DNA of 64,000 bases, from NCBI GenBank assembly GCA_002269645.1, contig NIVC01000096.1:124001-188000 (forward strand), written 5' to 3'. Both the position numbers and the translations under genes were made by a program. Origin of the DNA: Macrostomum lignano (Eukaryota). Under the pieces are notes generated by a model, which searched no databases, was not told the DNA's origin, and saw only the letters and a list, made by a program, of their open reading frames with translations. Of the stretch, positions 2,651 to 20,043 are shown one piece after another. Within the stretch, counting starts at the first letter, position 1; every line of letters begins with the position of its first letter.

Positions 2651-2788
2651 GAATTTTAACCCGAGCTTAAACTTTGAGACATCTCTGTTTGTTCTTCCAC
2701 GGTCCAGGAATTAGGAAAGGTCTTTTGAAAAGCTAGCCTGGTCCAGCGTCATAATATCGAACTGGAAGCTTCTGAGCAGTTTGTCGAC

Positions 2789-3845
2789 AGTAGTATGAGT
2801 TTATGCAACTCTGCCGCACTTGCACTGCGGAGATAGGCGGTAATGTAAAAGGATAGGAGGGCGTAAAAGAGCCAGCTGAGATAGCCAATGGAAATAAGGG
2901 GCGTGGGGTGGGTGTGATTGGCTGGGTGGTGAAACGCTTATGCAACTCTGCCGCACTGGGGGAGGCAGGTAGCAAAGCAAAGCATCGGAAGGTTTTGGAA
3001 TAGCAGAGTAAACAAATTAAAAACAAGGTAGGCATGGCGTGGAAACGTCCACCTCAATTTGTGCCTGGCTCGGCAACTCCTCAGCGTCCCCCACTGTGTT
3101 TATCCTATAGAATGTCTATGCACTATTTGTCAGTGCGGAGTGAAATAGATAAGAGAGAGGCTCTGGTCTTCTTGAGTGTCTGGCTCTGGCGATTCTAATA
3201 AATGGGCAATAAACTTTGTAACGGGTGCGGGGCTTGAGTGGAAAGGGTAGGGTTGGAAGTGGAGGTGAGGTTGGTGAGCTCTAAAACAGTTGTTCAACTC
3301 TGCCGCACTTTCACTGTGCAGGGACAGAGAGGTGAGCTCTAAAACAGTTGTTCAACTCTGCCGCACTTTCACTGTGCAGGGACAGAGAGGTGAGCTCTAA
3401 AACAGTTGTTCAACTCTGCCGCACTTTCACTGTGCAGGGACAGAGAGGTGAGCTCTAAAACAGTTGTTCAACTCTGCCGCACTTTCACTGTGCAGGGACA
3501 GAGAGGTGAGCTCTAAAACAGTTGTTCAACTCTGCCGCACTTTCACTGTGCAGGGACAGAGAGGTGAGCTCTAAAACAGTTGTTCAACTCTGCCGCACTT
3601 TCACTGTGCAGGGACAGAGAGGTGAGCTCTAAAACAGTTGTTCAACTCTGCCGCACTTTCACTGTGCAGGGACAGAGAGGTGAGCTCTAAAACAGTTGTT
3701 CAACTCTGCCGCACTTTCACTGTGCAGGGACAGAGAGGTGAGCTCTAAAACAGTTGTTCAACTCTGCCGCACTTTCACTGTGCAGGGACAGAGAGGTGAG
3801 CTCTAAAACAGTTGTTCAACTCTGCCGCACTTTCACTGTGCAGGG
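2789..3845 (+). repeat. Left terminal inverted repeat of Polinton-1
   Basis: Reverse complement of about 19275-19944: near-identical for the first ~280 bp, more diverged internally. Confidence 0.9.
3276..3845 (+). repeat. 58-bp tandem repeat, about 10 copies, inside the left TIR
   Basis: Unit GAGCTCTAAAACAGTTGTTCAACTCTGCCGCACTTTCACTGTGCAGGGACAGAGAGGT with period 58 (3276, 3334 ... 3798) and no spacers. Confidence 0.95.
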
Positions 3846-4074
3846 CGGAGGGCTAGGGTTTGAAGTGGAGGTGAGGTTGGTGGTTGGGGGGGGGGGTAGG
3901 GATTGGATGGCAGACAGAGCCATACTGTCTGTGCATATATATTTGGGGTAATTGTACATGGTGTACACAGGCAAGCAGTCTCTGTTTTTTAGAGAGAAGA
4001 TATATATACGCGCCTAAAAATTCGAAAGAAGCAAGAACGGAATTTGCGATTGATTTTAATCTCCAAAAAATATA

Positions 4075-5418
4075 ATGAAAGTCAAAAGAAAATCAGCTGT
4101 TAACAGTCTGCCTTTTTTTGAAGCCTGTCTTTCTTGCAACAAATGCGTCCTCGGAGGGCTGAAGCCGGACCGCCACATAGCCTGCAGCACCAGTAAGTGG
4201 AGCGTGTGCTGGCAGTGCAGCTTTTTTAAAAAGAGTAATGGAAGCTTCTCAGCCTCACGACATGACGGGCATCTCCAACTTCCGAGCGGAGACAATGGAT
4301 TGCGTAATATCAAGCGGCTTGTGCTCCAAAAAGCGCACCAGCTTGCTAAGGAGGAGGCAGCTCGCACTCGAGTGCTTAGTCAGGCCATCCGAGGCGTCCT
4401 TGATAGTGACGATGATTTTGTTGTTAATCAGTCGATTTCGTCAAAATGCCCTGCTGGAAGGGGAACTGATGAGATTGCTGGAAAGCAACTAAGAATGAGC
4501 AGCCCATACAGTTTTTTGGAGGAGCCCAGTGATCTTGAAGAGCACGACGACTTCAACCAGCAGCCGCAGCTGCCTGCCGCGGCCAACGAGGAGTTGCCTG
4601 ACGCCGGCCAGCTGCCCGCCGCGGCCAACGAGGAGCTGCCTGACGCCAGCCAGCTGCCCGCCGCGGCCAAGGAGGAGCTGCCTGACGCCAGCCAGCTGCC
4701 CGCCGCGGCCAACGAGGAGCTGCCTGACGCCGGCCAGCTGCCCGCCGCGGCCAACGAGGAGCTGCCTGACGCCGGCCAGCTGCCCGCCGCGGCCAACGAG
4801 GAGCTGCCTGACGCCGGCCAGCTGCCCGCCGCGGCCAACGAGGAGCTGCCTGACGCCGGCCAGCTGCCCGCCGCGGCCAACGAGGAGCTGCCTGACGCCG
4901 GCCAGCTGCCCGCCGCGGCCAACGAGGAGCTGCCTGACGCCGGCCAGCTGCCCGCCGCGGCCAACGAGGAGCTGCCTGACGCCGGCCAGCTGCCCGCCGC
5001 GGCCAACGAGGAGCTGCCTGACGCCGGCCAGCTGCCCGCCGCGGCCAACGAGGAGCTGCCTGACGCCGGCCAGCTGCCCGCCGCGGCCAACGAGGAGCTG
5101 CCTGACGCCGGCCAGCTGCCCGCCGCGGCCAACGAGGAGCTGCCTGACGCCGGCCAGCTGCCCGCCGCGGCCAACGAGGAGCTGCCTGACGCCGGCCAGC
5201 TGCCCGCCGCGGCCAACGAGGAGCTGCCTGACGCCGGCCAGCTGCCCGCCGCGGCCAACGAGGAGCTGCCTGACGCCGGCCAGCTGCCCGCCGCGGCCAA
5301 CGAGGAGCTGCCTGACGTCAGCCAGCTAGATGAAATTCTAGATGACATTGAAAATCTAGAACTACCTCAAGCAGCACCGGTCGTAGCCCCAGTTTTCAAC
5401 CTTTTTTGCCTGCGGTAA
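4075..5418 (+). CDS. Polinton ORF1: Cys/His-rich N-terminal domain plus about 18 copies of the 14-aa repeat ELPDAGQLPAAANE
   Basis: 447-aa ORF. N-terminus CxxCxxC...H..C...W..CW.C...RH.GH is homologous to 30865-31128 of Polinton-2. 42-bp tandem repeat at about 4566-5325. Confidence 0.75.
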   Translation: MKVKRKSAVNSLPFFEACLSCNKCVLGGLKPDRHIACSTSKWSVCWQCSFFKKSNGSFSASRHDGHLQLPSGDNGLRNIKRLVLQKAHQLAKEEAARTRVLSQAIRGVLDSDDDFVVNQSISSKCPAGRGTDEIAGKQLRMSSPYSFLEEPSDLEEHDDFNQQPQLPAAANEELPDAGQLPAAANEELPDASQLPAAAKEELPDASQLPAAANEELPDAGQLPAAANEELPDAGQLPAAANEELPDAGQLPAAANEELPDAGQLPAAANEELPDAGQLPAAANEELPDAGQLPAAANEELPDAGQLPAAANEELPDAGQLPAAANEELPDAGQLPAAANEELPDAGQLPAAANEELPDAGQLPAAANEELPDAGQLPAAANEELPDAGQLPAAANEELPDAGQLPAAANEELPDVSQLDEILDDIENLELPQAAPVVAPVFNLFCLR

Positions 5419-5893
5419 CTGGCAGGGCTATGAAATTCATTTTGACAATCAAAAGCTTACCCTGATAGCATTGTAATTGTAAGTCTAAATACTTTGATGC
5501 AGAAAAATTGAAGTAAAAATATACTGCTAGCATTCGATTTTTACTTCATTATGACTGGATAAGTTGGAATTTCGTTTCTATTTAATCAATTTCAATATTA
5601 GTTTTTCGCATAAATATAATAGTTTGAAAGTTTAATTTGTATCCATACTTTGTATTAGAGATGTATTTGACCATTCAAACTAATTGCAGCTAAGGGAACC
5701 AAATAACAGGCAAAGTGGCAGAGCAGGACTCAAGCGAGTTTTCAGAGTCCGATTGTGACTGCTGGTCAGAATCAGAGAGCGAAGATAATTGGTCTGAATC
5801 AAGTTCTACTCGGAGAGTGATTTCGATGGGCTATCTGAAACCGACACCAACAACACTAAGCAAGATTGTGCTAGTAGCGGTTCCAGTCTGATC

Positions 5894-6603
5894 GACACCG
5901 GCGGCGGCAGTGCAGGAAGCGACACCGGCGGCGGCAGTGCAGGAAGCGACACCGGGGGCAGTGCAGGAAGCGACACCGGCGGCGGCAGTGCAGGAAGCGA
6001 CACCGGCGGTGGTAGTGCAGGAAGCGACACCGGTGGCGGCAGTGCAGGAAGCGACACCGGCGGCGGCAGTGCAGGAAGCGACACCGGGGGCAGTGCAGGA
6101 AGCGACACCGGCGGCGGCAGTGCAGGAAGCGACACCGGCGGCGGCAGTGCAGGAAGCGACACCGGCGGCGGCAGTGCAGGAAGCGACACCGGCGGCGGCA
6201 GTGCAGGAAGCGACACCGGCGGCGGCAGTGCAGGAAGCGACACCGGCGGCGGCAGTGCAGGAAGCGACACCGGCGGCGGCAGTGCAGGAAGCGACACCGG
6301 CGGTGGTAGTGCAGGAAGCGACACCGGTGGCGGCAGTGCAGGAAGCGACACCGGCGGCGGCAGTGCAGGAAGCGACACCGGGGGCAGTGCAGGAAGCGAC
6401 ACCGGCGGCGGCAGTGCAGGAAGCGACACCGGCGGCGGCAGTGCAGGAAGCGACACCGGCGGCGGCAGTGCAGGAAGCGACACCGGCGGCGGCAGTGCAG
6501 GAAGCGACACCGGCGGCGGCAGTGCAGGAAGCGACACCGGCGGCGGCAGTGCAGGAAGCGACACCGGCGGCGGCAGTGCAGGAAGCGACACCGGCGGCGG
6601 CAG
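5894..6603 (+). repeat. 27-bp tandem repeat (about 26 copies), probably coding GGGSAGSDT
   Basis: Unit ACCGGCGGCGGCAGTGCAGGAAGCGAC with some 24-bp variants. The GGGSAGSDT frame continues the upstream acidic stretch SESDFDGLSETDT and runs to a GTGAGT donor at 6654. Confidence 0.8.
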
Positions 6604-6836
6604 TGAACTCAGCTTGATCGAAAACAACGGTGCCAGCAATATTCATCCTTATCGTGAGTCAACAACATTTTTAATTTCAGCCTTAAGTTATTTAATTCCT
6701 GGGTGCATTCGAAGTTTTGTATTTAAAAATCGAGAAATTCGATTTAAGTGTGCTTATTGAGTCTAAATTTCATTATCATGGAATACCATCTTTTGAGTAA
6801 CAGAGAATAAGCAAAGCTGTTAATTTTTTATTTTAG

Positions 6837-9800
6837 ACATTCAGCAAGTAGCAAGTGCGCACAACGAAACCCTGGTGGTGTATCGAATTTCCGTGCCAAG
6901 CGATGCACCATGTGACCCATTTGAACTCGCCCGACGGAGCAGGGAAGCAATACAGCGAATTGTATTCGAGAAGATGGAGAATCCAAATCTTTTAGTTAGA
7001 GCGCAGCTAAAAATGAGCATCCGAATGAACAGAATCCAAGCTGGTGAAGTGGTGAACCAGGAAGAAAGATGGGTAAGCACTCGTTTGCAACCTGTCAATG
7101 ACGCCACTTGCTTTGATGATTGGTGGTTGCGAAGGCATCATTGAGAAGATGAACACAAATGGCAGTGGTTGGGTGATTGTGCGCGTCAACTGCATCGACT
7201 TGAACATTGCGGTTGGTCAAAGACTGCGCTTCTACTCTGGTCATGCAAGCAATTTTGAATTACCTCCTCTGCTGAAGGCAAAAAAAGCCGTCATCAATCC
7301 TCCTAGTACTGGCTCTGATTGTTTTTTGTATGCCTGCCTTGCAGTGCTGCATCACGGTGATGAGAATTTGAGGAAAAACCCTCAAAGGCTTTCTACTTAC
7401 AAGGACTGGTTGAACGATATCAATCTTTCAGGAATTTCCTTACCCGTTGGACTCAACCAGCTAAATCGAATCGAATTACTGAACCCAAGGTTATGTTTTG
7501 TAGTTTTTTCTTGGTCAAGCAGTAACGGTGTCAGTGTGCTGAGGCAGCCACGAGTTGAAGTCGCATGCAGTCGCAAAGTAGTTCTTCTCCTACTATTGAA
7601 CAAATCAGCTAACAAGGATGAAGAGGATAAACACTGGTGCGGAATCGTGAGCCTTGATAGGCTACTAAACAGTAAAAGCGGTCTTTACCACAGAAAGTGG
7701 TGTGAACGCTGCTTGAGCTCTTTCGTAACTGATCAGAAGCTAAGTGAGCACAGAGACCAGTGCTATCGCTCTAATGAGTTTGCTGTCAAGGAACGAGTTC
7801 CTACTGAGAAGCGCAGCGTGCTGTCTTTTCAAAACTACTTCAAAACTATTGAAGCACCGTTCGCTATCTATGCTGATATTGAAGCATTTAATTCTCCGCT
7901 AGGCCCCCACACTCGAGAGGTCATGCATCAGAAGGTTGAGGAAATGGAGGTCAGCGACAATGAGCAAGTCTGCAGCACACGCAGCAGCAGCAGCAGCAGT
8001 CATGTACAAGCAAGACCAGATGAGGGCATGGTAACTGGCAAAACCGTCTTTATTTCCGAGCATCTGCCTGCAGCGGGTGGATTTCTACTCGTTGCTCGTG
8101 AAGGCATGAAGGGACCACCACTCAAGGATCAAGGTCATGTGAAGTTGGACTCCAGTTCAAATCCATTGGAGTGTATGGAAACGTTTCTTCATGAGCTGGA
8201 ACGCGTGGCTCGAGAAGTCTATGACTGGAACAGAAGGCACAGCTACCAAACGGCTGAAGCAGACACTACTGCTAGTCAAATCTTCAGTGAATCCTCCAAC
8301 TGTCATTACTGTGATCGACAGTTTACTGACACTAATGACAAGCACTATGACCATGATCATCTGACTGGAAAATTCAAAGGCGCCGCATGTTCACGGTGTA
8401 ACAAATTAGCGCAACTTCGCCGAAGATTTCTGCCGATTTTCTTCCATAATCTCCGAAATTATGACATGCACCTCCTGTTTTCAACAGCGTTAGGAAATAT
8501 GAAAAACTGGAAGCTGAGTGTCATTCCTCAGACTTCTGAACGCTATATGTCTCTTCGAATAGATTTCCCAATCGCCGAAATCACTCTACCGAAAGGCAAA
8601 AAGAAAACAATTTTCTTCACTCTGCAGTTCCTCGATTCATTCCAGTTTTTAAACGCGGGTCTAGACAAACTGATTCGCAACTTACCTCTCCAGGACAGAA
8701 AATTCACTCAGCAAATGAAAAGCTGCTTTCCAAAGTTAACTAATGAAACATTGTCTATCAAGGGAGTCTTTCCCTATGATTTCGTCAAATCCCCCGCGAA
8801 TTTGGCAGTGACCGAACTTCCGAGCAGAGAAGAGTTTTTCAACTCTCTGACAAAGACAGCTTGCAGTGAGGAGAGCTATGCTCATGCGCGCAAAGCCTGG
8901 AAGCAGATCGAAGCAAAAAAATTTGCACGACTACATGCTTGCCTACCTGCAGCTTGACATCCGTCAACTTGCCGATGTTTTTCAGAACTTTCGCCGTTTG
9001 AGTCTCCATGATGACGGTCTTGACACAGCCCACTACTTTACTACACCAGGTCTATCATTTGATTCCGCACTGAAATCCGCGCCAACACCGCTCCAGTTGC
9101 TCGACGATGCTGAGAAGTACAGACTCTTTGAGCTTGGCATTCGTGGAGGAATGACCTTCACGAACGTTCATCATGTTACTGCCGGACCAGTCACCAGTCA
9201 CCAGTCGTCAGATGGTGCAGATTCATCAAGCGCAGCTTCTAATGCCGAGACAAATTCTTTGCTCCCCGTAGACATGAATAATCTCTACGGGCAAGCGCTG
9301 TCCGAAAAACTACCCGTCAGTGACTTTGAGTGGCTTAGTGAAGAAGAACTGTGTGAATGGACAGAAGAGAAGCTACTTAAATTGGATGACGATGGTCCAG
9401 TTGGCTACCTATTTGAGGTTGATTTGGAATATCCAGATGTAATCCACACGCAGACACAAGATTTGCCATTTGCCCCCGAGAAGGCCGCGCCTAAGCTCGA
9501 AGAGTTTCCGCCATTCATGAAACGTCTTTGGGGCGAATTGAACACTCGCAACGAGCCGTACAAAGGCTGTGTGAAACTTTTACTCACATGTCATGACAAG
9601 GAATCCTACGTCGTACATTTCCGAATTTTGAAGTTCTACTTGCGTCACGGTATGCGACTAAAAAAGATCCGAAGAGCTATTCGATTTTGTCAAGCTGCAA
9701 TTTTCCAAGCCTACATTGACAGAAACAGCAAAAAGCGCTCAGTGGCTACAACGGAATTCGAAAAAGACTATTACAAACTGAAGAATAACTCCCTGTTCGG

Positions 9801-10653
9801 CAAAACGATGGAAAACGTACGGAAGAGGCTCAGTGTTCGAATTTCTAACAACGAGGAGCAGTCCGAAATCTATTCATCGCGTCCGAATCTTAAGGACTTT
9901 ACGATTGTGACTCAAGACTTAGTAGTTTTTCAATTTTTCAAGACATCAGTCACTCTTGACCGCCCAATCTACGTTGGTCAATGTGTTTTAGATGACTCTA
10001 AGCTGGCGATGTACCGATTGTACTATGGAAAGCTAAAGCCAACATTTGAGAATCCTGCTCTCCAACAAGGAGTTTCCCTATGCGGTGGGGACACCGATTC
10101 CTTCTTTCTGTGCTTTAAAAACATCGATGTTCAGAGTGCTGTTCTACCAGAACTCATTCGCCAGCGATTGCTAGATACCTCAAACTTCCCGGCCGACCAT
10201 CAATTCCGATCCGATGATCTAAAAGCCAAGTTAGGCTGCATAAAGGACGAATCTGCAGGCAACCCCCATCGTGAATGGATCCTTTTGAGACCAAAACTAT
10301 ACTCGATGAAGGCCGAGTCTGGAGGGAAGAAGGCAGCCAAAGGTGTTCAGAAGAGTGTGCTGCGGGCAGAAATCACACACGATGACTACATGCAGGCGTT
10401 TGCCAGTTTGAAGGAGCTTCGCGTCTTGACACGCAGAATCGCTAGCCGACGACACAGAGTAGTCACTTTAGAGCAACAGAAGCGTGCCCTGACTGTATGG
10501 GAGGACAAGCGTGCGTGGACTTCCCCAAACCAAAGTCTTCCGTATGGGCACTTTGCTTTAAGAGACCCCTGCCGCCACAGCTGCCGCCGTTACAATCGAG
10601 AAGCACCTCAACTAGCTGCTGATCAGGCTCCCAAGCAAATGAGGATGCAATAA
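6837..10653 (+). CDS. polB: Protein-primed family B DNA polymerase (pPolB) with endonuclease-VII-like Zn insert; two frameshifts (about 7130 and 8915)
   Basis: Exo motifs YADIEAF and FFHNLRNYD; DHDHLTGKFKGAACSRCN insert; KGVFPYDF; GIRGG; DMNNLYG (region A); KLKNNSLFGK (B); GGDTDSF (C). Spread over ORFs 6875-7144, 7098-8957 and 8866-10653. Confidence 0.96.
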
Positions 10654-11007
10654 CATACATTTGACTAGTGCGTACTTTGAATTGAGCATTTGCTCAGCTT
10701 TGCATTTTGGTTTTTGGAACGCAATGTACATTTTGTCCGCATAAATGCTATAGTACTTTTCTTTAACGTGCCATTGCTTTTTCAAAACTTGCTTAACTTT
10801 TATGAGTGTTAGCATTTTCATTTTCTTTCTTTTCCTATGTTCTTTTAATATTAGCATCAATTTTCGCTGTGTTGCAGTTTGCTGACAATTTTTTAGCATC
10901 TTTTGTAGCCAAAAAATAAAACTAGTAAACAAGGCATATTAAAGTTAAATTAAAGTTTTTTTCTTCTAGTTCTTGTCGGAAGATTAAAGACGGGTAATTA
11001 TTGTGCT

Positions 11008-11634
11008 TTATTTTAGTTGCATAAGTGTGTTAACAGAGCGAAACAGGGAAGAACTGTCGGATTTTAGCATACGCAGAGATTTTGCCCCACTTAGAATATA
11101 AGAAGCATTATGAAAAAGCAAGCATTTACAATACTTAAGTTGACAAACTAAAGCTGAAAATGTTTCTGGTTCATACTGGGCTTTGGGCAAAACTTTAACA
11201 AGTTCAGTAAGCGGTAGCGCATTTTGGAGCTTAAAACGTCCATGAGCAGTAATAGTTTTAATTCGAACACAAATAGTTTGATGAGGCAGCAGTTGATCCG
11301 GCACTCTCCGATGCAGCATAGCCATGAAGCGACGGGCAGCCCTTTTGGCGTCTGCGTGGGTCTTGGCGCCACAGATGCTCAGTTGTCCAGTAGGGTAGAG
11401 TAGCAGAGTCACTCTGGGACTCCGCATCCGCTTGATGAGCACCCGGGGCCAGACGGGCCGGTAGATCACATGAGCCATGCTGAGAGCCAGTTCCCGTAGA
11501 GGCAACTGGGCGCCCCTGCCACCATCCAGTCTCAGATCCACTCCGCCAACCAGATTGCTCACTCTTAGGGCTGTAGCTGCAGGTGGACTCATTTTGATCC
11601 TTGACTTCTTCACCAAATCTTCTGCCAACTTCAC
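11008..11634 (-). CDS. TBP: TATA-box-binding protein (TBP)-like protein, intronless and divergent
   Basis: Two TBP repeats: SNLVGGVDL / LIKRMRSPRVTLLLYPTGQLSICGAKTHADAKRAARRF (cf. TBP [38 protein letters not shown]) and YEPETFSAL...LLFHNASYILSGAK (cf. YEPELFPGL...LIFVSGKVVLTGAK). Probable start MSPPA at about 11590. Confidence 0.88.
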   Translation of the reverse strand: MKLAEDLVKKSRIKMSPPAATALRVSNLVGGVDLRLDGGRGAQLPLRELALSMAHVIYRPVWPRVLIKRMRSPRVTLLLYPTGQLSICGAKTHADAKRAARRFMAMLHRRVPDQLLPHQTICVRIKTITAHGRFKLQNALPLTELVKVLPKAQYEPETFSALVCQLKYCKCLLFHNASYILSGAKSLRMLKSDSSSLFRSVNTLMQLK

Positions 11635-12109
11635 TGCCCCTGTGCCACGGACACTGCTCGCTTCTTAAGTTGATGCAGAACTTTGGCTTAAGCCAACTGT
11701 AGTGCAGCAATGAATTTCTCACTGCACAGCCAGTATCTGAATCTTTAATCGAGGGTGCTCCCAAATCTTCTAGGTTATAAACCTGTCTACCAAGCAGCTC
11801 AGTCAGGAAAATAGACTTCCTTTCCCCATTTGTCCATATCGGACCACTGGCAATCCTCAGAATGTCTTCCGCCAGTTCCATGTACGGACGGGTTCCATCA
11901 CTCCACTTAAACTGGTGCAGACTCTTTGATAGCTGTCTGTAGCAAGCTCGCATGTCAGTGGAGACTCTCTCCCATGGATACGGAGGTGCGTACACATGGT
12001 GAGCAATTCGGTAGCTTCCCGCTCTGACTTGAACAACTGCCAACTCTTTCACAACAAATCTTTTGCTTGTGCTGTTGCACGGGAATCCTTGGAAGTCAAT
12101 GTAGTTCAT
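11258..12109 (-). CDS. Polinton-type DEDD/DnaQ-like nuclease-fold protein; the homologous part ends near 11680 and the remainder overlaps the TBP-like gene
   Basis: YIDFQGF...FVVKELAV...HHVYAPPYPW...WSDG..PY...NGERK...VYNLEDLGAPS...CAVRN matches the conserved small Polinton accessory nuclease-like family. Confidence 0.65.
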   Translation of the reverse strand: MNYIDFQGFPCNSTSKRFVVKELAVVQVRAGSYRIAHHVYAPPYPWERVSTDMRACYRQLSKSLHQFKWSDGTRPYMELAEDILRIASGPIWTNGERKSIFLTELLGRQVYNLEDLGAPSIKDSDTGCAVRNSLLHYSWLKPKFCINLRSEQCPWHRGSEVGRRFGEEVKDQNESTCSYSPKSEQSGWRSGSETGWWQGRPVASTGTGSQHGSCDLPARLAPGAHQADAESQSDSATLPYWTTEHLWRQDPRRRQKGCPSLHGYAASESAGSTAASSNYLCSN

Positions 12110-12137
12110 GATGCAGCTTTCCCTCGAAATTTCGGAG

Positions 12138-12829
12138 TCAGTCCACCTTCTTATATACTTTTCTGGCAGGCAGTTTCAGCCAGGCTGTGTTGCTCCCGTA
12201 CCCCTTGACTAGACTCTCCTGTTCTTTCTCCAGTTCACTCCCTCTGCTGTTTGCCATTTTCTTTTTAACTGATTTACCAACAGCGGAAAGCGGAACATTA
12301 AGCTTTTTCTGCTGCAGCAAATCATGAACTCGTTCCACCCAACTGGTTCACGCTCACATGGCGAATCCCTCACTGCGTGCTGAATCAAGTCCAGTATGTT
12401 TGAGGAAGGGATTGACGTGCCTGTGATTTCCACCTCCCCGTTTTCACAAACTCGAATCAGCTCTGGATTGGTGGACAGGATCGTCCATAGACTGCGAGCC
12501 CTGGTTTTGAATTTCTGTGGCACCGACTTGCTGATCTTCTCATCCCAGGTGTTCATCTGTGGTGTCTCTGTTTTCATCAACTTGGCTTCAGTATTGCGTG
12601 CTCCTTCTTTTCCAGCGTGCTTGCGTCTGGCCAGCAAACTTTGCATTGCACTTTGATACATGGTGGTTTTCACATCTTCTGGACAATCTTCGGCATACAA
12701 GATATCATCGCATTTCTTCTGAGCCTGCTTCAAGTTAGCGTCAGTGCTATTCTCATTTGGCTTCAAATTCTGCATCAACATCTCATACTCTGCTTTAGGA
12801 ATCAGAACCATTTCTGAAAATTTGTTCAT
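12138..12829 (-). CDS. Conserved Polinton accessory protein; one frameshift at about 12315
   Basis: MVLIP...DDIL...VPQKFKTRARSL...GEVEITG..IPSSNILDL...PVGWNEF, continuing in ORF 12138-12338 with NVPLSAVG...W. This pattern is typical of the gene downstream of the Polinton ATPase. Confidence 0.65.
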
Positions 12830-13163
12830 TTTGCTTCTTCTTCTTTACCAGCTTAAGCAGAATCGGGAGTATTTTAATGAAGCCAGCCTTCAACAAGTCT
12901 GTCTTTCTTCTTTTGTGAGTAATCTTTCGAATTATCTCTTTTGACTTTGCAAGAACAGCTTTTTCATCGAGCGAAAACGATATATTGTTTTGTAAGAGAT
13001 TATGGCAGGCCTCGACAAGAAAATAACGCACTTCTTTTGGACAATTTTTTATCAACAGCCGCTTGAAGCGCACGGTATATTTAGGTGACGCAAGAACCGC
13101 AAAAATACTTGCATGTGAATCAAGCACTTCCATAGCGATGAAAACAATAGCTGATAAAAACAA
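12795..13163 (-). CDS. Small basic conserved Polinton protein with amphipathic C-terminus
   Basis: LVEACHNLLQNNISFS...K..L.K.KEIIRKI...KAGFIKILPILLKLV resembles the CECALNxLxGN...GGFL family adjacent to Polinton ATPases. Confidence 0.6.
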   Translation of the reverse strand: MFLSAIVFIAMEVLDSHASIFAVLASPKYTVRFKRLLIKNCPKEVRYFLVEACHNLLQNNISFSLDEKAVLAKSKEIIRKITHKRRKTDLLKAGFIKILPILLKLVKKKKQNEQIFRNGSDS

Positions 13164-13174
13164 GCTTCACTTTC

Positions 13175-13855
13175 TTAAGCAAATACAAGATGGGGTCGCT
13201 GGTTGGGCAGAATTCTGGCCCGCACTCGCAGCTCATCGGGAGTTGATGGGTGAAAGTCTAGGAACAGGTAGGCTCCCCTGCCCTGCGCGGTCACGTGCTT
13301 GAACACTGACAGCAGAAAGCCGGGCTTCTCTGTAAAGCACTGCCTGCCCAGTGCTGCAATCTGCAGCTGGTCTCTGGGGTTTTTCAAGATAGCTAAGTAC
13401 ATTACATTCAAGCTCATTGTTCGCGACTCTTTTCCCTTAAAAAATATATTCTGAGTCAGCATCACCAAGAAGCACGGCAAGTGATGTGCGATTCCTGTGA
13501 AAAAATTTCGCATTGAAGCAGAGTTTGAAGTTTCCTCTATTAAGTCATCGAAAACAACCAGGTCATTGGGCCTAAGTGCTGCCTCGATGTTGGTGGGAAA
13601 TCCCTGGCGCAGCTGCACACCTAGGCTGCTCAGTTCTGCATGGCCTGCCTGTGAGATCCCATAGTACCACAGAACTCTGCCAGGCTTCACATCAAACATG
13701 ACGTCTCTGTACTGGATCAGGTGTTTGATGAAGGTTGTTTTTCCTGCATTGGTGGGCCCGCAGACAATCATGCAGCTTCCCTGCCTGAGGCGGATATCGT
13801 GGCAAACTCGCTTTTCTGCCATGTCTAATGCATAAATATTAGAAATCACGCACAT
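13175..13855 (-). CDS. A32/FtsK-HerA DNA packaging ATPase
   Basis: Walker A GPTNAGKT, Walker B LVVFDD, and LTQN...SRTMSLN...KNPRD motifs; intact ORF. Confidence 0.95.
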   Translation of the reverse strand: MCVISNIYALDMAEKRVCHDIRLRQGSCMIVCGPTNAGKTTFIKHLIQYRDVMFDVKPGRVLWYYGISQAGHAELSSLGVQLRQGFPTNIEAALRPNDLVVFDDLIEETSNSASMRNFFTGIAHHLPCFLVMLTQNIFFKGKESRTMSLNVMYLAILKNPRDQLQIAALGRQCFTEKPGFLLSVFKHVTAQGRGAYLFLDFHPSTPDELRVRARILPNQRPHLVFA

Positions 13856-14355
13856 CTTTTTCTTAAGTTGGCTTCAAACCTCTGTAAGATTCTATCATTC
13901 AAATGATTTTTTTCATTAGCATGCAAATGCTTCAAAATCCCCTCAAATGACCGATTGAACAGAAACTTTTGATAAGCAAAATAGATGCAAAACATTCCGC
14001 ATTTATTAGAGTTAGCACATTGAAATCTGTTTATATTGCTTCGGAGCCAAAAGCCAGTTGTTTTAATCTCTCGAAACAAATTATAAACCACAGATAAAAT
14101 TTCAGGTTCCCAGCCGAGGGAGTTGAACAGCTCAATGCAATTTCCTTGTCCAACATAGCACACCACCCAATGACCAAATGAACCATTGTGCTGTAGTAGA
14201 ACAAAAACAAACTTATTTTCAAAGGAAATTGATCGATATTTTCTTTTTAGACTCAAAGGCAAAACATTTTTATAGCGTGAATGTAAAGTAATGATGAGAA
14301 ATTTTCGGCAAGACAAAAATTTTCTGGCGAGATTAAGTAGTTGAATTGCGTCCAT
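13846..14355 (-). CDS. Adenain-like (C5) cysteine maturation protease
   Basis: GHWV, FNSLG and FQC..SNKCGMFCIYF catalytic His/Gln/Cys motifs; intact ORF. Confidence 0.93.
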   Translation of the reverse strand: MDAIQLLNLARKFLSCRKFLIITLHSRYKNVLPLSLKRKYRSISFENKFVFVLLQHNGSFGHWVVCYVGQGNCIELFNSLGWEPEILSVVYNLFREIKTTGFWLRSNINRFQCANSNKCGMFCIYFAYQKFLFNRSFEGILKHLHANEKNHLNDRILQRFEANLRKRCA

Positions 14356-14360
14356 GCCAA

Positions 14361-15632
14361 TTAAGAGGAATAGTCCAGCAAAAGCTCCCGGTGCTTGGTG
14401 ACCTCAATCAACGAGTCATACAGGCACAGAGCGATCAGGGACACCGTTTCGTCCAGAGCCTGTCGGAAGCGAATCTCCAGCCGCAGGTTGCCCTCCTTCT
14501 GTCCGTACCACAGAGCCGCTCCTCTGGTGTGAGATCGAATGCAAACACCGTGTTGTTGTTGGAGAAGAGCTGGTAGGGGATCCACGGGACCGAATTGCTT
14601 GCAGATTGACAGCTTTTCATGTAGTGCAAGTATTCTCTTACAAAGGAATTGTTTTCAGGTGTGAAGGCGCCGTGGCACACGGTCTCTCCACCTTTCTTTA
14701 GAGCCAACCGGCTGAGGTTGAAGCTCTGGAACTGGAACGGACTCGCGTGATGATGACCGTTGAATGCTCGGTGGCTCACGAAGGCCAGCATGATGAACTT
14801 CGGCAATTTTCCATGAGTGAATCCTTCAATGTTTTTAGATTGAATGCCCTGGGGTAGGATGAAGTTCTGCATTTCAGTTCGCTCGATGGGATACAGTGCA
14901 TTTTGGTTTGTCAGCCCCTGCTCGTGAGCCAGGCTGATGTGGGGCACCACTTTGACTCGGCGAAGATGAGAATGCTGTGAGAGATTTCCATGCGATAAGC
15001 CGCGTTGTTTGCATTCGGGGTTCTGATGGCAAAGGCCCCATCGCTGGGGACCAGTTTGATGTGCAAGTGCAGATTGCTTAGCAGAAACACTGGGCACTGG
15101 AAAACATCGCTGAAGAGGGCCCCGCATACTCCATCCATCGGGATTCCCTGTGGCTCTCCGTGTGCTCTTCAGCTGCAGAGTCCGGCTCCAGGAAGCCAGC
15201 TGGGTAAAGTTTTAGTTGCTGGGCATCAGATGAGCTCATTAGTGCTTTGAAGTACGCATGGTAGGGATAGAGCTCTCCACCAGACACCACTCGCTGGTTA
15301 ATGCTCACAATTACATCTGAGAAGGCTGTAGACAGAACAAAGTTTTCTGGGTGCACGTCACTGTCTCTGCGATCGGTGATGATGCCATCTCCATCTCGAA
15401 CATCCTCCCTCAGCAAACCCCCATCCAGTCTCACAAGGCGGCAGCGAATATAAAGAAAAGAATTAAGCAGATCTGTGTATTCATCGGCAGATTGGTGGCA
15501 GTCAAATTCAATGGGGGAGTTTGCAGTAATGGAATTTACTGGGTGAATATCAACATAAGTAGCTTTTTCAATGCAGGTTTGTAAAACGGGCGTTTTAAAT
15601 AAATCAAGTCTGGGATTGAATCCGTAAGCCAT
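14361..15632 (-). CDS. Major capsid protein (double jelly-roll, hexon-like); about 3 frameshifts
   Basis: LDLFKTPVLQTCIE...YVDIHP...PIEF...YTDL; GKLPKFIMLAFV..RAFNG...PFQF; VFAFDLTP; GNLRLEIRF...IEVTKHRELLLDY. Spread over ORFs 15078-15632, 14911-15138, 14435-15127 and 14361-14585. Confidence 0.9.
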
Positions 15633-15634
15633 GT

Positions 15635-16024
15635 CTATGACAGAGAGTCGAGCACGCGTTTCACAGTTTTCTTGCTGACTTTTTGCTTTCGCTTTCCTCC
15701 GCCTGCTCTATTCTTCTTTGCTTTCGTCTTCCTATTCTTAAGCTTTTTCCTACTAGCCTTGCTCGGCTTTCTTCCATTGCACCTCTTATTGGTGCGATCG
15801 CCACCAGTTGCCTTTCGGGTGCGCTTCTTCTTCTTCAATCGTTTCGGACTTGCTTCAGCATTTCTTTTGCGCCTGACATTGCTAAGCGTTGAGGATAATG
15901 ATGTAGCCGCTGGAGGAGGCTGGTATGTCATGATCCCCGGAAAGCTCCCACAGCCATAGAGTGCAGGCTTTTCGTGTGCTGTCCTCACCCCCGAATATTG
16001 CTGGATTAGCTGCTGGTAGTTCAT
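15635..16024 (-). CDS. Lys/Arg-rich putative virion core (DNA-condensing) protein between penton and hexon
   Basis: MNYQQLIQQYSG...GCGSF followed by a K/R-rich tail. Its ATG overlaps the penton stop (ATGA) and its stop lies just before the hexon ATG. Confidence 0.6.
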   Translation of the reverse strand: MNYQQLIQQYSGVRTAHEKPALYGCGSFPGIMTYQPPPAATSLSSTLSNVRRKRNAEASPKRLKKKKRTRKATGGDRTNKRCNGRKPSKASRKKLKNRKTKAKKNRAGGGKRKQKVSKKTVKRVLDSLS

Positions 16025-16836
16025 TGAATGCGTTTCTCCCGAATCTGAACTGTGAGCAGAACAGGCTGTGAGTCTGGGCAATCAGTGGGCAACCATAGAT
16101 GTCCCGCAGCTGAACTCGAATGCTGTGAAGAAGACTGATTCGTTGAATCGGGAAGAATATTGTTTTCTTAAATATTTTTGTTTGATAGTTGCCCCATTCA
16201 ATGCCAGCTTTCATTCCAACTGTTCTCAACAAGGAGCCCCAGTTGCAATTAGTTGACTCAACGACACTGCAGTGTACATTGATTAAGCTGGTGCGCGGAC
16301 AGCCAATGCAATGCTCGGACACGCGGCTCCTGGCTGGATTTTCACAGCCTGGTTTCCAAATCCCAGCCAATGCAGAATTTTGCTGGATGGGAGAAACAGC
16401 TCTGCTCTCGTCGTGTTGTTGTGCACCACAGTTCGTGAGTTGCGGATTTCGAACTTCATACCGAATTCCCTGTTGCCACTACGCCCCATCAGGCCGGACT
16501 CATCAGCCTCCATCTCAGACTCCCTGTCACTCATCGCATCAAAGAACAGCGAATCAGAGTTGGCCAGCAGCTCATTCAGGCGCTCCACCAGCTCCTCCAC
16601 TCTAGCAAAGCGTCCGGGTTGAAGAACCAGGGCCTCATGCTCTCTTCCATCTGAGACAGTGAAGCAGTAAGGCTCGTCAACATTGAACCATGCAGCAGGC
16701 AGATGGATTTCAGCCAGACCTGCCTCATAGTCCACATTTCGATCCAAGTAAATAGGTGAAGGCAGGTAAAAATTAAGTCACTAGGAGTACCTTCAGCATG
16801 CTCACTGTTGATCAAAATAGTTCGCATTATAATCAT
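16021..16836 (-). CDS. Minor capsid protein (penton, single jelly-roll); about 3 frameshifts
   Basis: LPSPIYLDRNVDYEAGLAEIHLPAAWFNV; INVHCSVVE...LLRTV...FFPI...IRVQLRDIYGCP; reconstructed C-terminus VLLTVQIREKRIQ* at 16021. Confidence 0.85.
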
Positions 16837-16864
16837 AAACTACATGATGAGGGATGTGTCAAAG

Positions 16865-17937
16865 CTAAACCTTTCTTAAGTCTTTTTCATCCACCCAGCC
16901 AGTCGAATCGTAGCCGGCCCACTTCACCAGATAGCGAATTTTTCCCTTCCGCTTCTCCGTTTTCAGGATCTTCTCAATCACATACAGCCGCTGTGAGTCC
17001 GGGACAGCTTGCAGCTCGTGCTCATGGAAGAGTCCTCGAATCTCTTCCCCCGCATGTCTTTAATCTTGTACATGTAGGGATAATGTTTTGGGGCTCTGCT
17101 CACCACGGTGTACACTTCCTCACTCCAGCTCGCTTTGTATCCCTTTTTGAATAGCCGTGGAGCATTGGAAATTCTCACTGACTGGTTTTCAGCGAATTTA
17201 GGCTTCCTTAATTTTTCTAGAGTCTCGACTGCTTTTCCGTCGTACAGGTTCATCCACACTTCAGATTCATTCTCTTTGCAGACACTAGTGGGTGCCATTT
17301 TGATGCTTCTGTGATAGGTATTGTTGTAAGATTTTACCAGCTTAGGCAGCACATCAAGCCAGTGCAGTGTGCTCTTGTAGGTGAAGTAGCGCCACATTCT
17401 ACTTTTCAGAGTCCGATTCCATCGCTCAATGACAGCCGCCTTCTGCTCGCTGTTAGTTGGGAAAGCCAGAATTCCTCTGTCAATGCAGTATTGACGGAAA
17501 GTGGAGTTGATAAATTCCTTCCCCTGATCTGTGCGAACTGTGCGTGGCTGGCGCTTTGAACTTCTCAGTATGCTCTCGAAAGCTGACTTCACTTCTGTAG
17601 CAGTTTTATTTTTCAGTGCCTTGGCCCAAGCACACTTTGACAGTACGTCAATACATGTAAGAATATATTTGTAGCCTTTATTATACTTTGCGAATGGAAT
17701 CATTTCTACCAAGTCAAGTTCCCACTGATCATCGATAGCCCGCACTATGATTGGAGCCCTTGGATATCGCCTTCTAGCTGGCTTGTGTAGGGTGTGCACT
17801 GGCTGCTCACTGAGCCACTGTTCTATGCACTTAGTGGATTTGCGATCTCCTCTTCTCCTAACTTCATTCAACAGTTTGGAAGCACTAGAAAAACTAGCCG
17901 GCTGTTGTGGGTCAAAGTAAATTTTTTCCATCCTCAA
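16865..17937 (-). CDS. int: Retroviral-type (rve, DDE) integrase with C-terminal chromodomain; one frameshift at about 17035
   Basis: IYFDPQQPASF; WELDLVEM; IDVLSK; RTDQGKEF; ERWNRTLK. The shifted frame gives LYVIEKILKTEKRKGKIRYLVKWAGYDSTGWVDEKDL* (chromodomain). Confidence 0.95.
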
Positions 17938-18300
17938 ATGAAAAAGAACCAGACGTACGCAGGTATGTTTTTCTTAAGAACAACGATTGGCGTTTTAAAA
18001 GACAGGTTTTATTCCAATATTAAACTCATACAGCGTACACTCATTATATTTTTTTTAAATTAGGGATTGCGAACAGTTGGTGATCGTGAAAAGAAGATTG
18101 CAGGAAATAGTAACACTGAGTAGTGCAAATAAGTATAAATTGCATGCATTTAAGTATAAACTTGGTTTGTTAACACCTGAATAAATAAGACTAAACGGTT
18201 AAGACAATTGTCAAAACTTAACTTAGCTGAATAAAATTAGACAAAGGCAAACCAAACTGAATTATCCTTTGAGTCTCATCAGTCTCATCCAACCTCCAGC

Positions 18301-19032
18301 TCAGTCTTCAAAACGCAGCTTAGACACCTTCATTGTCTCCTGCCTGCGCAGAGGATACGGCAGTTTTCGCTTCCGATTGTTCTCCACCTCAGCGGCATGA
18401 GCCCGGAATCGGTACCACACCGGATCCTGCTGTAGGTCCGTGTCCTCCGCCGGGATGTTCCCAGTCGATGTGCCGGCTCTGGCCAAAGGTGTGGAAGTCA
18501 CAGCCTCGATGTCGGTTGTCAGCTCCGATGGTGAGCCGACCTCCTCCTCGCCTTCAGCAGCCTCAGTCTTGACCGGCAGTATGAGGGTGGCGTCTTCGTC
18601 CTCATCTTCGGATGAGCTCAGCTCGTACTTCGCCCCCGCACCTTGGTAGGGCTCTGATAGCTGCTGGTCTATCCAGTCCGAAGTCTGCCACAGCTTCTGC
18701 CAGAGCCTCGGAGACAGCGGCACGGTGTTGCGCTTCATAAATTCATCACAGCAGTCCTCAGGCAGCCGCTTCAGCCAGATGAGGCCATCCTTGACTTGAA
18801 CAAATTTGTCGAAGCCCAGCTTGATGACCTTGAGCTCGTTGTTCAGAGCCGACTTCACCAGGGAGCGCTTTAACTCCTTTAGCTTCGTCCACTGCTGCAC
18901 ATTCAGGTTGAAGCCAGGAACACCAGGCTTGAGGCTTGCTGTGCTGCCATGTCGGTAAAACTTCCTGATCGCGATGTATTTCTGGCCTTCGAATTCTTGC
19001 ACCTGCACTCTGTAACCTTCACTAATATCCAT
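18301..19032 (-). CDS. PC4/Sub1-like ssDNA-binding / transcriptional coactivator protein with tandem PC4 domains and an acidic tail
   Basis: YRVQVQEFEGQKYIAIRKFY...LKPGVPGFNLNVQQWTKLKE vs human PC4 YVSVRDFKGKVLIDIREYW...[20 protein letters not shown]. Second degenerate copy LGFDKFVQV...VPLSPRLWQKL. Confidence 0.85.
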   Translation of the reverse strand: MDISEGYRVQVQEFEGQKYIAIRKFYRHGSTASLKPGVPGFNLNVQQWTKLKELKRSLVKSALNNELKVIKLGFDKFVQVKDGLIWLKRLPEDCCDEFMKRNTVPLSPRLWQKLWQTSDWIDQQLSEPYQGAGAKYELSSSEDEDEDATLILPVKTEAAEGEEEVGSPSELTTDIEAVTSTPLARAGTSTGNIPAEDTDLQQDPVWYRFRAHAAEVENNRKRKLPYPLRRQETMKVSKLRFED

Positions 19033-19115
19033 AGTTCACACAAAATCACTTCGAAAACTTGTGAAATCGAATTCAAGAAAAAAATAGATTTACCGTTGAA
19101 TTTAAAAATCGGGGG

Positions 19116-19123
19116 CTTATATA
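19116..19123 (-). promoter_or_regulatory. Candidate TATA box of the PC4-like gene
   Basis: Minus-strand GAGGGTATATAAG about 85 bp upstream of the ATG; the same context GAGGGTATAAAAG is conserved in Polinton-2 (45242-45249). Confidence 0.55.
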
Positions 19124-19274
19124 CCCTCAAAGCGGAGTGGGGTGGGTGTCAGAATGAGCACCCACCCCTTTTTTGCTTATTCGGCATCAAGCAGCGGCTG
19201 CTCGTCGGCATCAGCCACACAACCCGTTACAAAGTTTATTGCTCATTTATTAACAATGCCAGTGCGCCTTGAGC

Positions 19275-19944
19275 CCACCTCTCTGTCCCTGCACATTAAA
19301 GTGCGGCAGAGTTGAACAACTGTTTTTTAGAGCTCACCTCTCTGTCCCTGCACAGTGAAAGTGCGGCAGAGTTGAACAACTGTTTTAGAGCTCACCTCTC
19401 TGTCCCTGCACAGTGAAAGTGCGGCAGAGTTGAACAACTGTTTTAGAGCCCACCAACAACCTCACCTCCACTCCAAACCCTACCCTTTCCACTCAAGCCC
19501 CCGCACCCGTTACAAAGTTTATTACCCATTTATTATCAATGCCAGTGCGCCAGAGGCAGACACTCAAGAGCGGAGCCTCTCTCCGCTTAGAGTTGCATAG
19601 GCATTGCTATACAATAAGCACATTGGAGGATGGTGAGGAGTTGCATAGGCCAGGCACAAAATTGAGGTGGACGTTTCCACGCCACGCCTACCTTGCTTTA
19701 ATTTGTTTACTCTGCTATTCCAAAAACCTTCCAATTCTTTGCTTTGCTTTGCTACCTGCCTCCCCCAGTGCGGCAGAGTTGCATAAGCGTTTCACCACCC
19801 GCGCCGCCCAGCCAATCACACCCACCCCACGCCCCTTATTTCCATTGGCTATCTCAGCTGGCTCTTTTACGCCCTCCTATCCTTTTACATTACCGCCTAT
19901 CTCCGCAGTGCAAGTGCGGCAGAGTTGCATAAACTCATACTACT
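19275..19944 (-). repeat. Right TIR of Polinton-1, with 3 copies of the 58-bp repeat
   Basis: Reverse complement of the left end; 58-bp units at about 19277-19449. Confidence 0.9.
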
Positions 19945-20043
19945 GTCGACAGAGATTCCCCAATAGCTTCGTTGCAGTCCAATCAAGCATATTCAAGCCA
20001 GGCACCTGTGTACTGAATGTCTGTCTTTATTCACGGTTGAGCC

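What the first reader, a model, noticed from the sequence alone, without database searches (positions are those of the whole stretch)
11008..11634. A Polinton encodes its own divergent TATA-binding protein
The intronless, intact ORF aligns by eye with both repeats of the TBP saddle. It sits at the end of the virion-gene cluster inside an element bounded by TIRs and a TSD, so it is element cargo rather than a host gene. Of the four DNA-intercalating Phe positions, the two in repeat 2 are kept (ETF, LLF), one is Tyr (LLY) and one is altered (PVWP). The second conserved Asn is lost (KTIT vs QNMV). This suggests altered promoter specificity, as in TRF2/TLF, or a decoy role. TBP homologues are established in NCLDV giant viruses but are not a canonical Polinton core gene. 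Hypothesis: a late-gene specificity factor, or a competitor for host TFIIA/TFIIB/SL1/TFIIIB.
Basis: partly seen in the sequence, partly recalled or inferred. Interest (0 to 1): 0.88.

Follow-up and report, generated by a model that had tools for sequence, protein, structure and literature searches.

The report
Polinton TBP with private promoter word
A family of virus-like jumping elements in an animal genome carries its own intact, strongly altered TATA-binding protein gene and repeats one TATA-like DNA word in front of most of its integrase and predicted particle genes, so the element likely brings its own switch for turning those genes on with the host's RNA polymerase.

Summary
Confirmed and extended. 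The ORF (ATG 11592 to 11008, minus strand, 194 aa) is a two-lobe TBP (Pfam 75 bits; model Z 20 to TBP) inside a 17.2-kb Polinton with TIRs and a true 6-bp TSD. It is not a one-off retrocopy: 152 genome matches, two Polinton families 36-38% apart, dN/dS mostly 0.1-0.3, 25% identity to the separate host TBP. Both TFIIB-binding glutamates are invariant, the DNA face is rebuilt, and no element TFIIB was found. New here: CTTAAGAA, the top 8-mer of the element, lies before six genes including TBP; family B uses CTATAAGAA; a third family with a more remote TBP-like gene uses TATAAGCAA; a family without detectable TBP lacks these upstream words. The upstream ORF stays open 107-129 codons into TBP in another frame. 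Best reading (0.65): a late-promoter specificity factor feeding host TFIIB/Pol II. Binding and expression are untested. This scan noted mini-TBP Mavericks with TATA-like words before on other DNA; in print I found only a figure-legend label.

The parts
11008..11592 (-). TBP-like gene, 194 aa, two lobes, no intron
   Evidence: Pfam PF00352 75 bits; fold Z 20; 152 genome matches
11662..11669 (-). CTTAAGAA word 77 nt before the TBP ATG (inside the upstream ORF)
   Evidence: 8 of 8 kept in subfamily C130
11007..11012 (-). AATAAA overlapping the TBP stop; the only one on this strand between 14007 and the gene end, so likely a shared 3' end for nested mRNAs
   Evidence: function inferred
11258..12109 (-). 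283-aa ORF: conserved N-terminal 165 aa (exonuclease-like by a weak lead only) plus a 111-codon tail overlapping TBP in the -1 frame
12150..12157 (-). canonical-type TATATAAG 48 nt before the 283-aa ORF
   Evidence: TATTTAAG in subfamily C130
13172..13179 (-). CTTAAGAA 46 nt before the 112-aa ORF (12795-13133)
13860..13867 (-). CTTAAGAA 12 nt before the first and 45 nt before the second ATG of the ATPase
   Evidence: sister copies begin at the second ATG
15735..15742 (-). CTTAAGAA 110 nt before the presumed major capsid gene
   Evidence: only 7 of 8 kept in C130
16165..16174 (-). variant TATTTAAGAA 150 nt before the basic ORF at 16024; family B has CTATAAGAA at what looks like the homologous place
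16873..16880 (-). CTTAAGAA 44 nt before the presumed minor capsid gene; also kept in family B
17971..17978 (-). CTTAAGAA 47 nt before the integrase, intergenic
   Evidence: 8 of 8 kept in C130 while flanks match 5 of 30 and 10 of 30
19116..19123 (-). canonical-type TATATAAG 91 nt before the PC4-like gene
18301..19032 (-). PC4-like gene
   Evidence: Pfam PF02229 37 bits, cut-off 25; present in families A and B
16978..17931 (-). RVE integrase (shorter than in sister copies)
   Evidence: Pfam rve 49.8 bits; 355 aa in C878, C130, C219
14435..16836 (-). presumed minor capsid, basic protein and major capsid genes, in pieces in this copy
   Evidence: the capsid names are recalled from Polinton gene layouts, no Pfam, PHROG or PDB match
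13175..14355 (-). adenoviral-type protease and packaging ATPase
   Evidence: Peptidase_C5 E 0.002 and Pox_A32 E 0.026, both under the curated cut-offs
7098..10653 (+). protein-primed PolB, in two ORFs in this copy
   Evidence: DNA_pol_B_2 43 bits in the second ORF; one ORF of 1150-1280 aa in four sister copies
2789..3455 (+). left TIR
19271..19944 (-). right TIR
2783..2788 (+). target-site duplication GTCGAC, left
19945..19950 (+). target-site duplication GTCGAC, right

Best explanation
The Polinton encodes an intact, selected TBP whose DNA face is rebuilt and whose TFIIB-binding glutamates are kept, and it repeats the word CTTAAGAA before six of its genes; the protein likely binds this word and would recruit host TFIIB and RNA polymerase II to switch on the integrase and the presumed particle genes. 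Shown: the fold, the residues, selection, the word and its position, family-specific versions of the word, absence of gene and upstream word in one other Polinton family.
For: Fold and domains. Kept in the element: 152 matches; by my hand count about 94 of the 150 listed rows are near-full-length stop-free family A copies; 17 such rows in family B; 30 of 30 loci checked have Polinton neighbours. dN/dS in the TBP frame, 28 family A pairs: N-part 0.09-0.29 in 27 pairs and 0.59 in one near-identical pair; C-part 0.07-0.32 where not saturated. TFIIB glutamates E141/E143: 13 of 13 family A and 5 of 5 family B sequences, D/E in 9 of 9 family C; these are the TFIIB/Brf contacts (PMC7221094). No TFIIB family hit in the element ORFs scanned; only 15 low-copy matches in the genome. 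CTTAAGAA is the top-ranked 8-mer of the coding block, 6 seen against 0.27 expected, p 5e-7 before correction; 6 of 6 sense sites lie 10-120 nt before a gene start, windows that cover 15% of the block, p 1e-5; four sit at 44-47 nt; 5 of 6 are perfectly kept in a subfamily 70% identical, where 13% of 8-mers are, p 2e-4. Over 10 family A elements 52 sense sites against 4 antisense, 51 of 52 within 170 nt before a homologous gene start. Family B has CTATAAGAA, family C TATAAGCAA before the matching genes; the family without a TBP-profile hit has 0 CTTAAGAA in three elements and one of 45 ORFs with any such word upstream. A polar DNA face with a variant box is how KSHV ORF24 works (PMC12529657).
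Against: No binding, start-site or expression data. Family B's word differs from a canonical TATA box by one letter and its TBP gene sits behind CTATAAAAG, so host TBP could read it. The protease and the 206-aa gene lack the exact word, the basic-protein site is a variant at 150 nt, and the capsid site at 110 nt is imperfect in C130. Three sites are Leu-Arg codons in the preceding gene (3 of 29 Leu-Arg pairs against 0.73 expected in the window), so protein constraint contributes. I first saw the word by eye after a lead from earlier notes; sister subfamilies share ancestry and are not independent; the negative control is one AT-rich lineage, and a very remote TBP could have been missed there. 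Repeat 2 has been swapped among subfamilies (dS 1-2 or saturated) without a change of word, so gene and word do not co-vary inside family A, although the key residues stay fixed. The lobe-to-base assignments other than the proline are recalled, not tested.
Confidence: 0.65

Rival explanations
1. The word is a TATA variant read by host TBP; the element protein is a decoy or sink that binds host TFIIB or Brf1 and dampens host transcription.
For: TFIIB glutamates invariant while the DNA face lost one Phe, one Asn and the proline; family B words are near-canonical.
Against: The DNA face is not degenerate: Y66, S72, T113, K156 are fixed across families A and B. The word drifts from TATA only in TBP-carrying families, and the family without TBP has none. 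A decoy of TFIIB would also starve the element's own promoters.
Confidence: 0.15
2. The word is a late promoter read by a factor of a co-infecting large virus, as for virophages, and the TBP is an accessory.
For: Shared promoter motifs in mavirus-type elements are in print (search listing and abstract starts only); the TAAG core resembles the baculovirus late motif (recalled).
Against: Three families in one host use three versions of the word, each with its own TBP clade; the element has Pol II-type TATA boxes and AATAAA signals. No helper virus was looked for.
Confidence: 0.08
3. The protein has left Pol II initiation: it acts with Brf for Pol III, or binds single-stranded or replicating DNA, and the word has another reader.
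For: The same glutamate contacts Brf1/Brf2 (PMC7221094); the divergent Giardia TBP prefers single-stranded DNA (PMC12209930, abstract start and passages); the element also carries a PC4-like protein.
Against: The word precedes protein-coding genes with poly(A) signals; three of four aromatic positions are kept (F, F, Y); the basic N-lobe patch that Brf1 also uses is not held in family B.
Confidence: 0.08
4. A recent, neutral retrocopy of host TBP or TRF2 that rides along.
For: Host TBP and TRF2-like cores are themselves intronless; sisterhood with host TRF2 is not rejected (p-AU 0.052).
Against: 25% and 22% identity; sisterhood with host TBP rejected, p-AU 0.002; families A and B form a supported clade, 98/94; purifying selection and mostly intact copies.
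Confidence: 0.01

Closest known systems
Cellular TBP (PF00352; PDB 5fur_A, 7o4i_O, 1mp9_B)
   Same: Two-lobe saddle (Z 20, rmsd about 2 A), N69, V71, L114, F190, F207 and both TFIIB glutamates.
   Different: 25% identity; F116 to Tyr, F99 loop rebuilt, N159 to Thr, proline after F190 lost, V122, V161 and V203 polar or basic; no N-terminal extension; N-lobe stirrup changed.
Beta/gamma-herpesvirus TBP mimic (KSHV ORF24; PMC12529657, passages read)
   Same: Virus-encoded TBP fold with a more polar DNA face, paired with a variant TATA word at late promoters, host Pol II.
   Different: ORF24 has extra domains, binds Pol II directly, works in a six-protein complex and lacks the TFIIB acids. The Polinton protein is a bare 194-aa core that keeps them. 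Its function is inferred, not shown.
Giant-virus (NCLDV) TBP-like proteins (PMC7221094, abstract, passages and two parts of the main text read; BFVD matches)
   Same: Viral TBP fold; N-lobe regulatory patch not conserved.
   Different: Those viruses nearly always encode their own TFIIB and keep the first glutamate in about 40%; here no element TFIIB was found and the acids are invariant. Structural matches are looser (TM 0.6-0.7) than to cellular TBP.
TRF2/TBPL1 (PMC4422821, passages read)
   Same: TBP paralogue with changed DNA-contact aromatics and kept TFIIB acids.
   Different: Host TRF2-like protein is a separate gene, 22% identical, with other substitutions; TRF2 does not bind TATA and no specific DNA word is established for it.
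'TBP' label in MELD/adintovirus-like gene maps (Starrett et al. 2021, PMC8502044, Fig. 5 legend; section 3.4 read, figure not visible)
   Same: A TBP-like gene in a midsize dsDNA element with adintovirus-like PolB.
   Different: One legend entry, no analysis; I could not see which virus carries it, and the section concerns non-animal data sets. No promoter word or mechanism is given in what I read.

Membership tests
TBP family (PF00352) | two TBP repeats above the curated cut-off | tested here: met
   75 bits, two stretches; family B 68 bits
TBP family (PF00352) | saddle fold | tested here: met
   Z 20.1, rmsd 2.0 A, 177 residues
canonical TATA-binding TBP | four intercalating Phe and two Asn | tested here: not met
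   two Phe, one Tyr, one rebuilt loop; one Asn
canonical TATA-binding TBP | acidic C-lobe pair for TFIIB/Brf | tested here: met
   E141, E143 in 18 of 18 family A and B sequences
canonical TATA-binding TBP | sequence-specific DNA binding and TFIIB recruitment | not testable with these tools
   needs biochemistry
Polinton/Maverick | long TIRs with AG..CT ends and 6-bp TSD (criterion recalled) | tested here: met
Polinton/Maverick | protein-primed PolB and RVE integrase | tested here: met
   PF03175 43 bits, PF00665 50 bits
Polinton/Maverick | packaging ATPase and adenoviral-type protease | tested here: inconclusive
   matches under the curated cut-offs
Polinton/Maverick | double jelly-roll major and minor capsid proteins | tested here: inconclusive
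   no Pfam, PHROG or PDB sequence match; not folded; names rest on position, size and recall
TRF2/TBPL1 | clade membership with host TRF2 | tested here: inconclusive
   not recovered in the tree, not rejected (p-AU 0.052); 22% identity
giant-virus TBP-TFIIB system | own TFIIB in the same genome | tested here: not met
   no PF00382 hit among the element ORFs scanned; genome matches are low-copy; a very remote TFIIB among the unassigned ORFs is not excluded
herpesvirus ORF24-type TBP mimic | extra Pol II-binding domain and loss of the TFIIB acids | tested here: not met
   the fold covers residues 5-193 of 194; acids kept

The most novel reading that the evidence does not exclude
Animal Polintons run an early-late gene programme with a one-protein switch: a self-encoded minimal TBP that reads a family-private TATA word (CTTAAGAA, CTATAAGAA, TATAAGCAA), plugs straight into host TFIIB and Pol II, amplifies itself, and is gated by an overlapping reading frame. 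This would be a third design of viral TBP use, beside giant-virus TBP-TFIIB pairs and the six-protein herpesvirus complex, and a set of naturally orthogonal TBP-promoter pairs living in one genome.
Probability: 0.45. Interest if true: 0.88.

Novelty: new variant of a known kind. Interest (0 to 1): 0.74.

Why it matters
How integrated animal Polintons turn on their particle genes, and whether they do it on their own or need a helper virus, is open. A self-encoded TBP with a matching promoter word gives a concrete, testable answer and argues for an autonomous virus-like programme. The pairing also offers natural altered-specificity TBPs: several families in one genome, each with its own word, in which residue-to-base rules can be tested with purified protein and short DNA. 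The nearest named relative comes from Macrostomum lignano, a laboratory flatworm, so transcript mapping and knock-down look feasible.

Tried and rejected
Expression: no RNA holder was listed on record; three guessed-RNA contig sets and one run of unrecorded kind cover the element with similar depth profiles, so they say nothing about expression. Binding to host TFIIB: no complex prediction was obtained, so this is open. Context of relatives outside this genome: six scans of viral contigs found nothing; one alignment was too diverse to search; the metagenome scan gave 21 loci, none with a match to the window's other Polinton proteins; the seven I read look like cellular genes or are too short to tell. 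So whether P0003-P0005, P0010, P0023, P0161 and the short TBPs near them in the tree lie in Polintons is unknown. The tail of the 283-aa ORF as a conserved protein: rejected, its apparent dN/dS is above 1 because it absorbs TBP's silent changes, and the family A-B match ends at residue 163. High conservation of repeat 1 as a pure effect of the overlap: rejected in part, a recombination break near codon 118 explains the step between repeats. A start at 11634: not favoured. The TSD as a mere extension of the TIR: rejected. Family C protein: no Pfam hit and weak profile match (probability 17%); only the custom profile (E 5.5e-7), the motifs and the fold search (top five TBPs, Z 8.4-10.8 but rmsd 8-10 A) support it. 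A primary TBP-DNA structure paper asked for by a recalled id was not held. Literature searches for a prior description; term look-ups with no TBP/TATA hit in PMC11131425 and bioRxiv 2023.08.22.554363, no hit for transcription, TFII or PC4 in PMC11161782, none in the one supplement held for PMC8502044. Subscription papers, Repbase entries, figures and bioRxiv supplements were not visible and may hold a prior mention.

Full report
1. The observation. The minus-strand frame 11008-11634 is open; the ATG at 11592 gives 194 aa. It matches Pfam TBP with 75 bits over two stretches, only TBPs in the PDB (35 of 35), and its model (pLDDT 94) lies on human, yeast and archaeal TBP with Z 20 and rmsd 2 A over nearly the whole chain, far above the first unrelated row (Z 8.6). 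The model was built with an alignment that held TBP rows, but the sequence matches stand without it. The gene is the last of a left-pointing cluster in a 17,156-bp element (2789-19944) with about 670-nt TIRs, PolB and RVE integrase above the Pfam cut-offs, and protease and ATPase below them. The flanking GTCGAC is a palindrome; sister copies settle that it is a target-site duplication: 5 of 6 contigs with both ends fetched carry a perfect, each time different, 6-mer. In this copy polB, the presumed capsid genes and the integrase are broken or shortened; contigs from four runs disagree with the window at several such places, so some breaks may be assembly errors or private to this copy.

2. It is a standing part of the element. 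The own genome gives 152 matches (150 of 232 candidates scored, so a lower bound; host TBP itself appears three times, so the assembly may count loci more than once). By hand count about 94 of the 150 listed rows are near-full-length and stop-free members of family A (73-100% identity). All 30 loci fetched with that search have Polinton neighbours. A second family, B, is 36-38% identical, has another gene order (polB-integrase-capsid-...-TBP, PC4 on the other strand) and 17 full-length stop-free rows. Host TBP and a host TRF2-like gene are separate and 25% and 22% identical. In a 51-row tree (chosen from 160 rows of a first FastTree run, near-duplicates and most cellular TBPs left out) A and B form one clade, 98/94, with six proteins from other public data. 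Sisterhood with host TBP is rejected (p-AU 0.002); with host TRF2 it is not (0.052). Long branches limit the deeper placement, so the donor is unknown. In the TBP frame dN/dS is 0.09-0.29 in 27 of 28 family A pairs for residues 6-111 and 0.07-0.32 for the rest where not saturated. The nearest named relative is a Macrostomum lignano protein, 78% identical.

3. Anatomy of the protein (yeast numbers through the host core). Kept in all 18 A and B sequences: N69, V71, L114, E186, E188, F190, F207. Changed and then fixed: F116 to Y, K120 to Q (H in one), V122 to S/T, T124 to C, N159 to T, V161 to T (S in one), V203 to K; the proline after F190 is S, T or N; the F99 loop is rebuilt differently in A and B. 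The two glutamates are the TFIIB/Brf contact, poorly kept in viral TBPs, which mostly come with their own TFIIB (PMC7221094; abstract, passages and parts 2-3 of the text). Here they are invariant and no TFIIB family hit was found in the element ORFs scanned; the 15 genome matches are low-copy and the one I read is an intron-split host gene. The basic N-lobe patch used by TFIIA, TAF1, Brf1 and Mot1 is partly kept in A and lost in B. So the adapter side looks host-compatible, the regulatory side relaxed, and the DNA side rebuilt but under constraint.

4. The promoter word. Earlier notes of this scan on other genomes (unchecked) led me to look upstream of the genes. CTTAAGAA stood out. It is the top-ranked 8-mer of the coding block (6 against 0.27 expected; also top in C878, 7 against 0.34; in C130 simple repeats fill the top ranks). 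The six sense sites lie 47, 44, 110, 12 (45 to the second ATG), 46 and 77 nt before integrase, presumed minor capsid, presumed major capsid, ATPase, the 112-aa ORF and TBP; such windows cover 15% of the block (p 1e-5). Five of six are perfectly kept in a subfamily 70% identical (13% of 8-mers are; p 2e-4); at the integrase the word survives between flanks matching 5 of 30 and 10 of 30. Ten family A elements give 52 sense and 4 antisense sites, 51 of 52 near a gene start; these elements are related and not independent. The PC4-like gene and the 283-aa ORF have canonical-type TATATAAG instead. Family B has CTATAAGAA at three places, one CTTAAGAA, and CTATAAAAG before its TBP. A third family, C, carries a far more remote TBP-like frame (72 matches; same Y-P, D/E-x-E-x-F and F motifs; top five fold matches TBP but with poor rmsd) and TATAAGCAA before the matching genes. 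A fourth family, three copies read, has no TBP-profile hit, no CTTAAGAA, and one of 45 ORFs with any such word upstream; it is one AT-rich lineage. Against: the protease and 206-aa genes lack the exact word, three sites coincide with Leu-Arg codons (3 of 29 against 0.73 expected), and family B's word is close to a normal TATA box.

5. Two oddities of the gene itself. First, the upstream ORF runs on over the TBP start in the -1 frame and stays open for 107-111 codons in 32 of 32 rows with an intact family A TBP (some rows repeat one locus) and 129 codons in 3 of 4 family B rows, then fills with stops. Given the TBP sequence and the element's codon usage the chance is 0.010 (window) and 0.002 (family B); 0 of 20 stop opportunities are used in the overlap against 8 of 17 after it (the overlap is also richer in G+C). 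The tail sequence is not conserved and relatives of the domain in the protein atlas are 167-181 aa. So an open frame, not a protein sequence, seems selected; why is unexplained. Second, repeat 2 is exchanged between subfamilies with the polB side: window against L016 has pS 0.02 in repeat 1 and 0.62 in repeat 2, and C878 is 96-99% identical to the window in ATPase, protease, integrase and PC4 but 74% in TBP and about 50% in polB.

6. Mechanism. Most likely (0.65) the word is the box for the element's TBP, which hands over to host TFIIB and Pol II: canonical boxes for early genes, the word for integrase and particle genes, feedback through the word before TBP in family A, and a shared 3' end at the AATAAA on the TBP stop. 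The lost proline, which in TBP favours T at the first position (PMC12529657, passage), fits CT in place of TA; the other residue-to-base links are recalled. Binding, start sites, timing and feedback are all inferred. Rivals: decoy with host TBP reading the word (0.15), helper-virus promoter (0.08), Pol III or single-strand role (0.08), neutral retrocopy (0.01).

7. Known relatives and novelty. It works like the herpesvirus late TBP mimic but is not one (no extra domains, acids kept), and it is not a giant-virus TBP-TFIIB pair. It belongs to the TBP family but fails the canonical four-Phe, two-Asn test. In print I found only a 'TBP' label in gene-map legends of Starrett et al.; eight searches showed no analysis of a Polinton TBP or its promoter, within a library that lacks most subscription papers. 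I rate it a new variant of a known kind, interest 0.74.

Noticed in passing
G000 C2285:176242-176856 (L089:8242-8859), C1704, C753, C889, C209, C297: Third Polinton family with a very remote TBP-like frame between a PC4-like gene and a deoxynucleoside kinase gene, plus dUTPase in some copies; word TATAAGCAA. The first TBP strand lies before the first Met, behind a pyrimidine run ending in AG in several copies, so the gene may be spliced; in some copies the TBP frame runs on over the kinase gene.
   Followed up: partly
G000 C2506, C506, C3469 (L080-L085, L094-L096): AT-rich Polinton family with another gene set, no TBP-profile hit and none of the upstream words; used as control.
   Followed up: partly
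window 18301-19032 (-): PC4-like gene behind a canonical TATA box, present in families A and B; a second host-transcription-type protein in the element, or a single-strand DNA-binding protein.
   Followed up: partly
window about 11240 (TBP codon 118): Recombination break inside the TBP gene: repeat 2 and polB vary together among subfamilies whose other genes are nearly identical.
   Followed up: partly
window 29873 (+) and 45361 (-): A second pair of AGTAGT ends similar to the Polinton's bounds a 15.5-kb stretch that holds retroelement ORFs; possibly a gutted or non-autonomous relative.
   Followed up: no
window 4075-5418 and 5794-6726: 447-aa ORF with a 14-aa acidic repeat (42-nt unit) and a 27-nt array in the left arm of the element; sister copies have ORFs with a similar start and other repeats.
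   Followed up: no
window 31451-34482, 35769-39557, 43331-44020: Non-LTR-type RT/RNase H, a Ty3/gypsy-type protease-RT-RNase H-integrase set and a DUF1759 (Pao-type) ORF.
   Followed up: no
window 25983-29521 and 59334-64000: Two related blocks about 34 kb apart with 18-nt tandem arrays and unassigned ORFs of 349 and 636 aa.
   Followed up: no
L031:4709-5365 and L032:4341-5513: Host TBP and host TRF2-like genes are each one uninterrupted ORF and each appear three times in the assembly.
   Followed up: partly
proteins P0021, P0022, P0034, P0041, P0062, P0096, P0145, P0153, P0066, P0080: Short, divergent 144-193-aa TBPs from public data branch near the Polinton clade with weak support; several share the F-H motif in repeat 2. 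Their genomic context could not be fetched.
   Followed up: partly
G000 C2285:127807, C491:291315 (L086-L093): A further large class of PolB-like ORFs with no match to the window's capsid, ATPase, integrase or TBP genes nearby.
   Followed up: no
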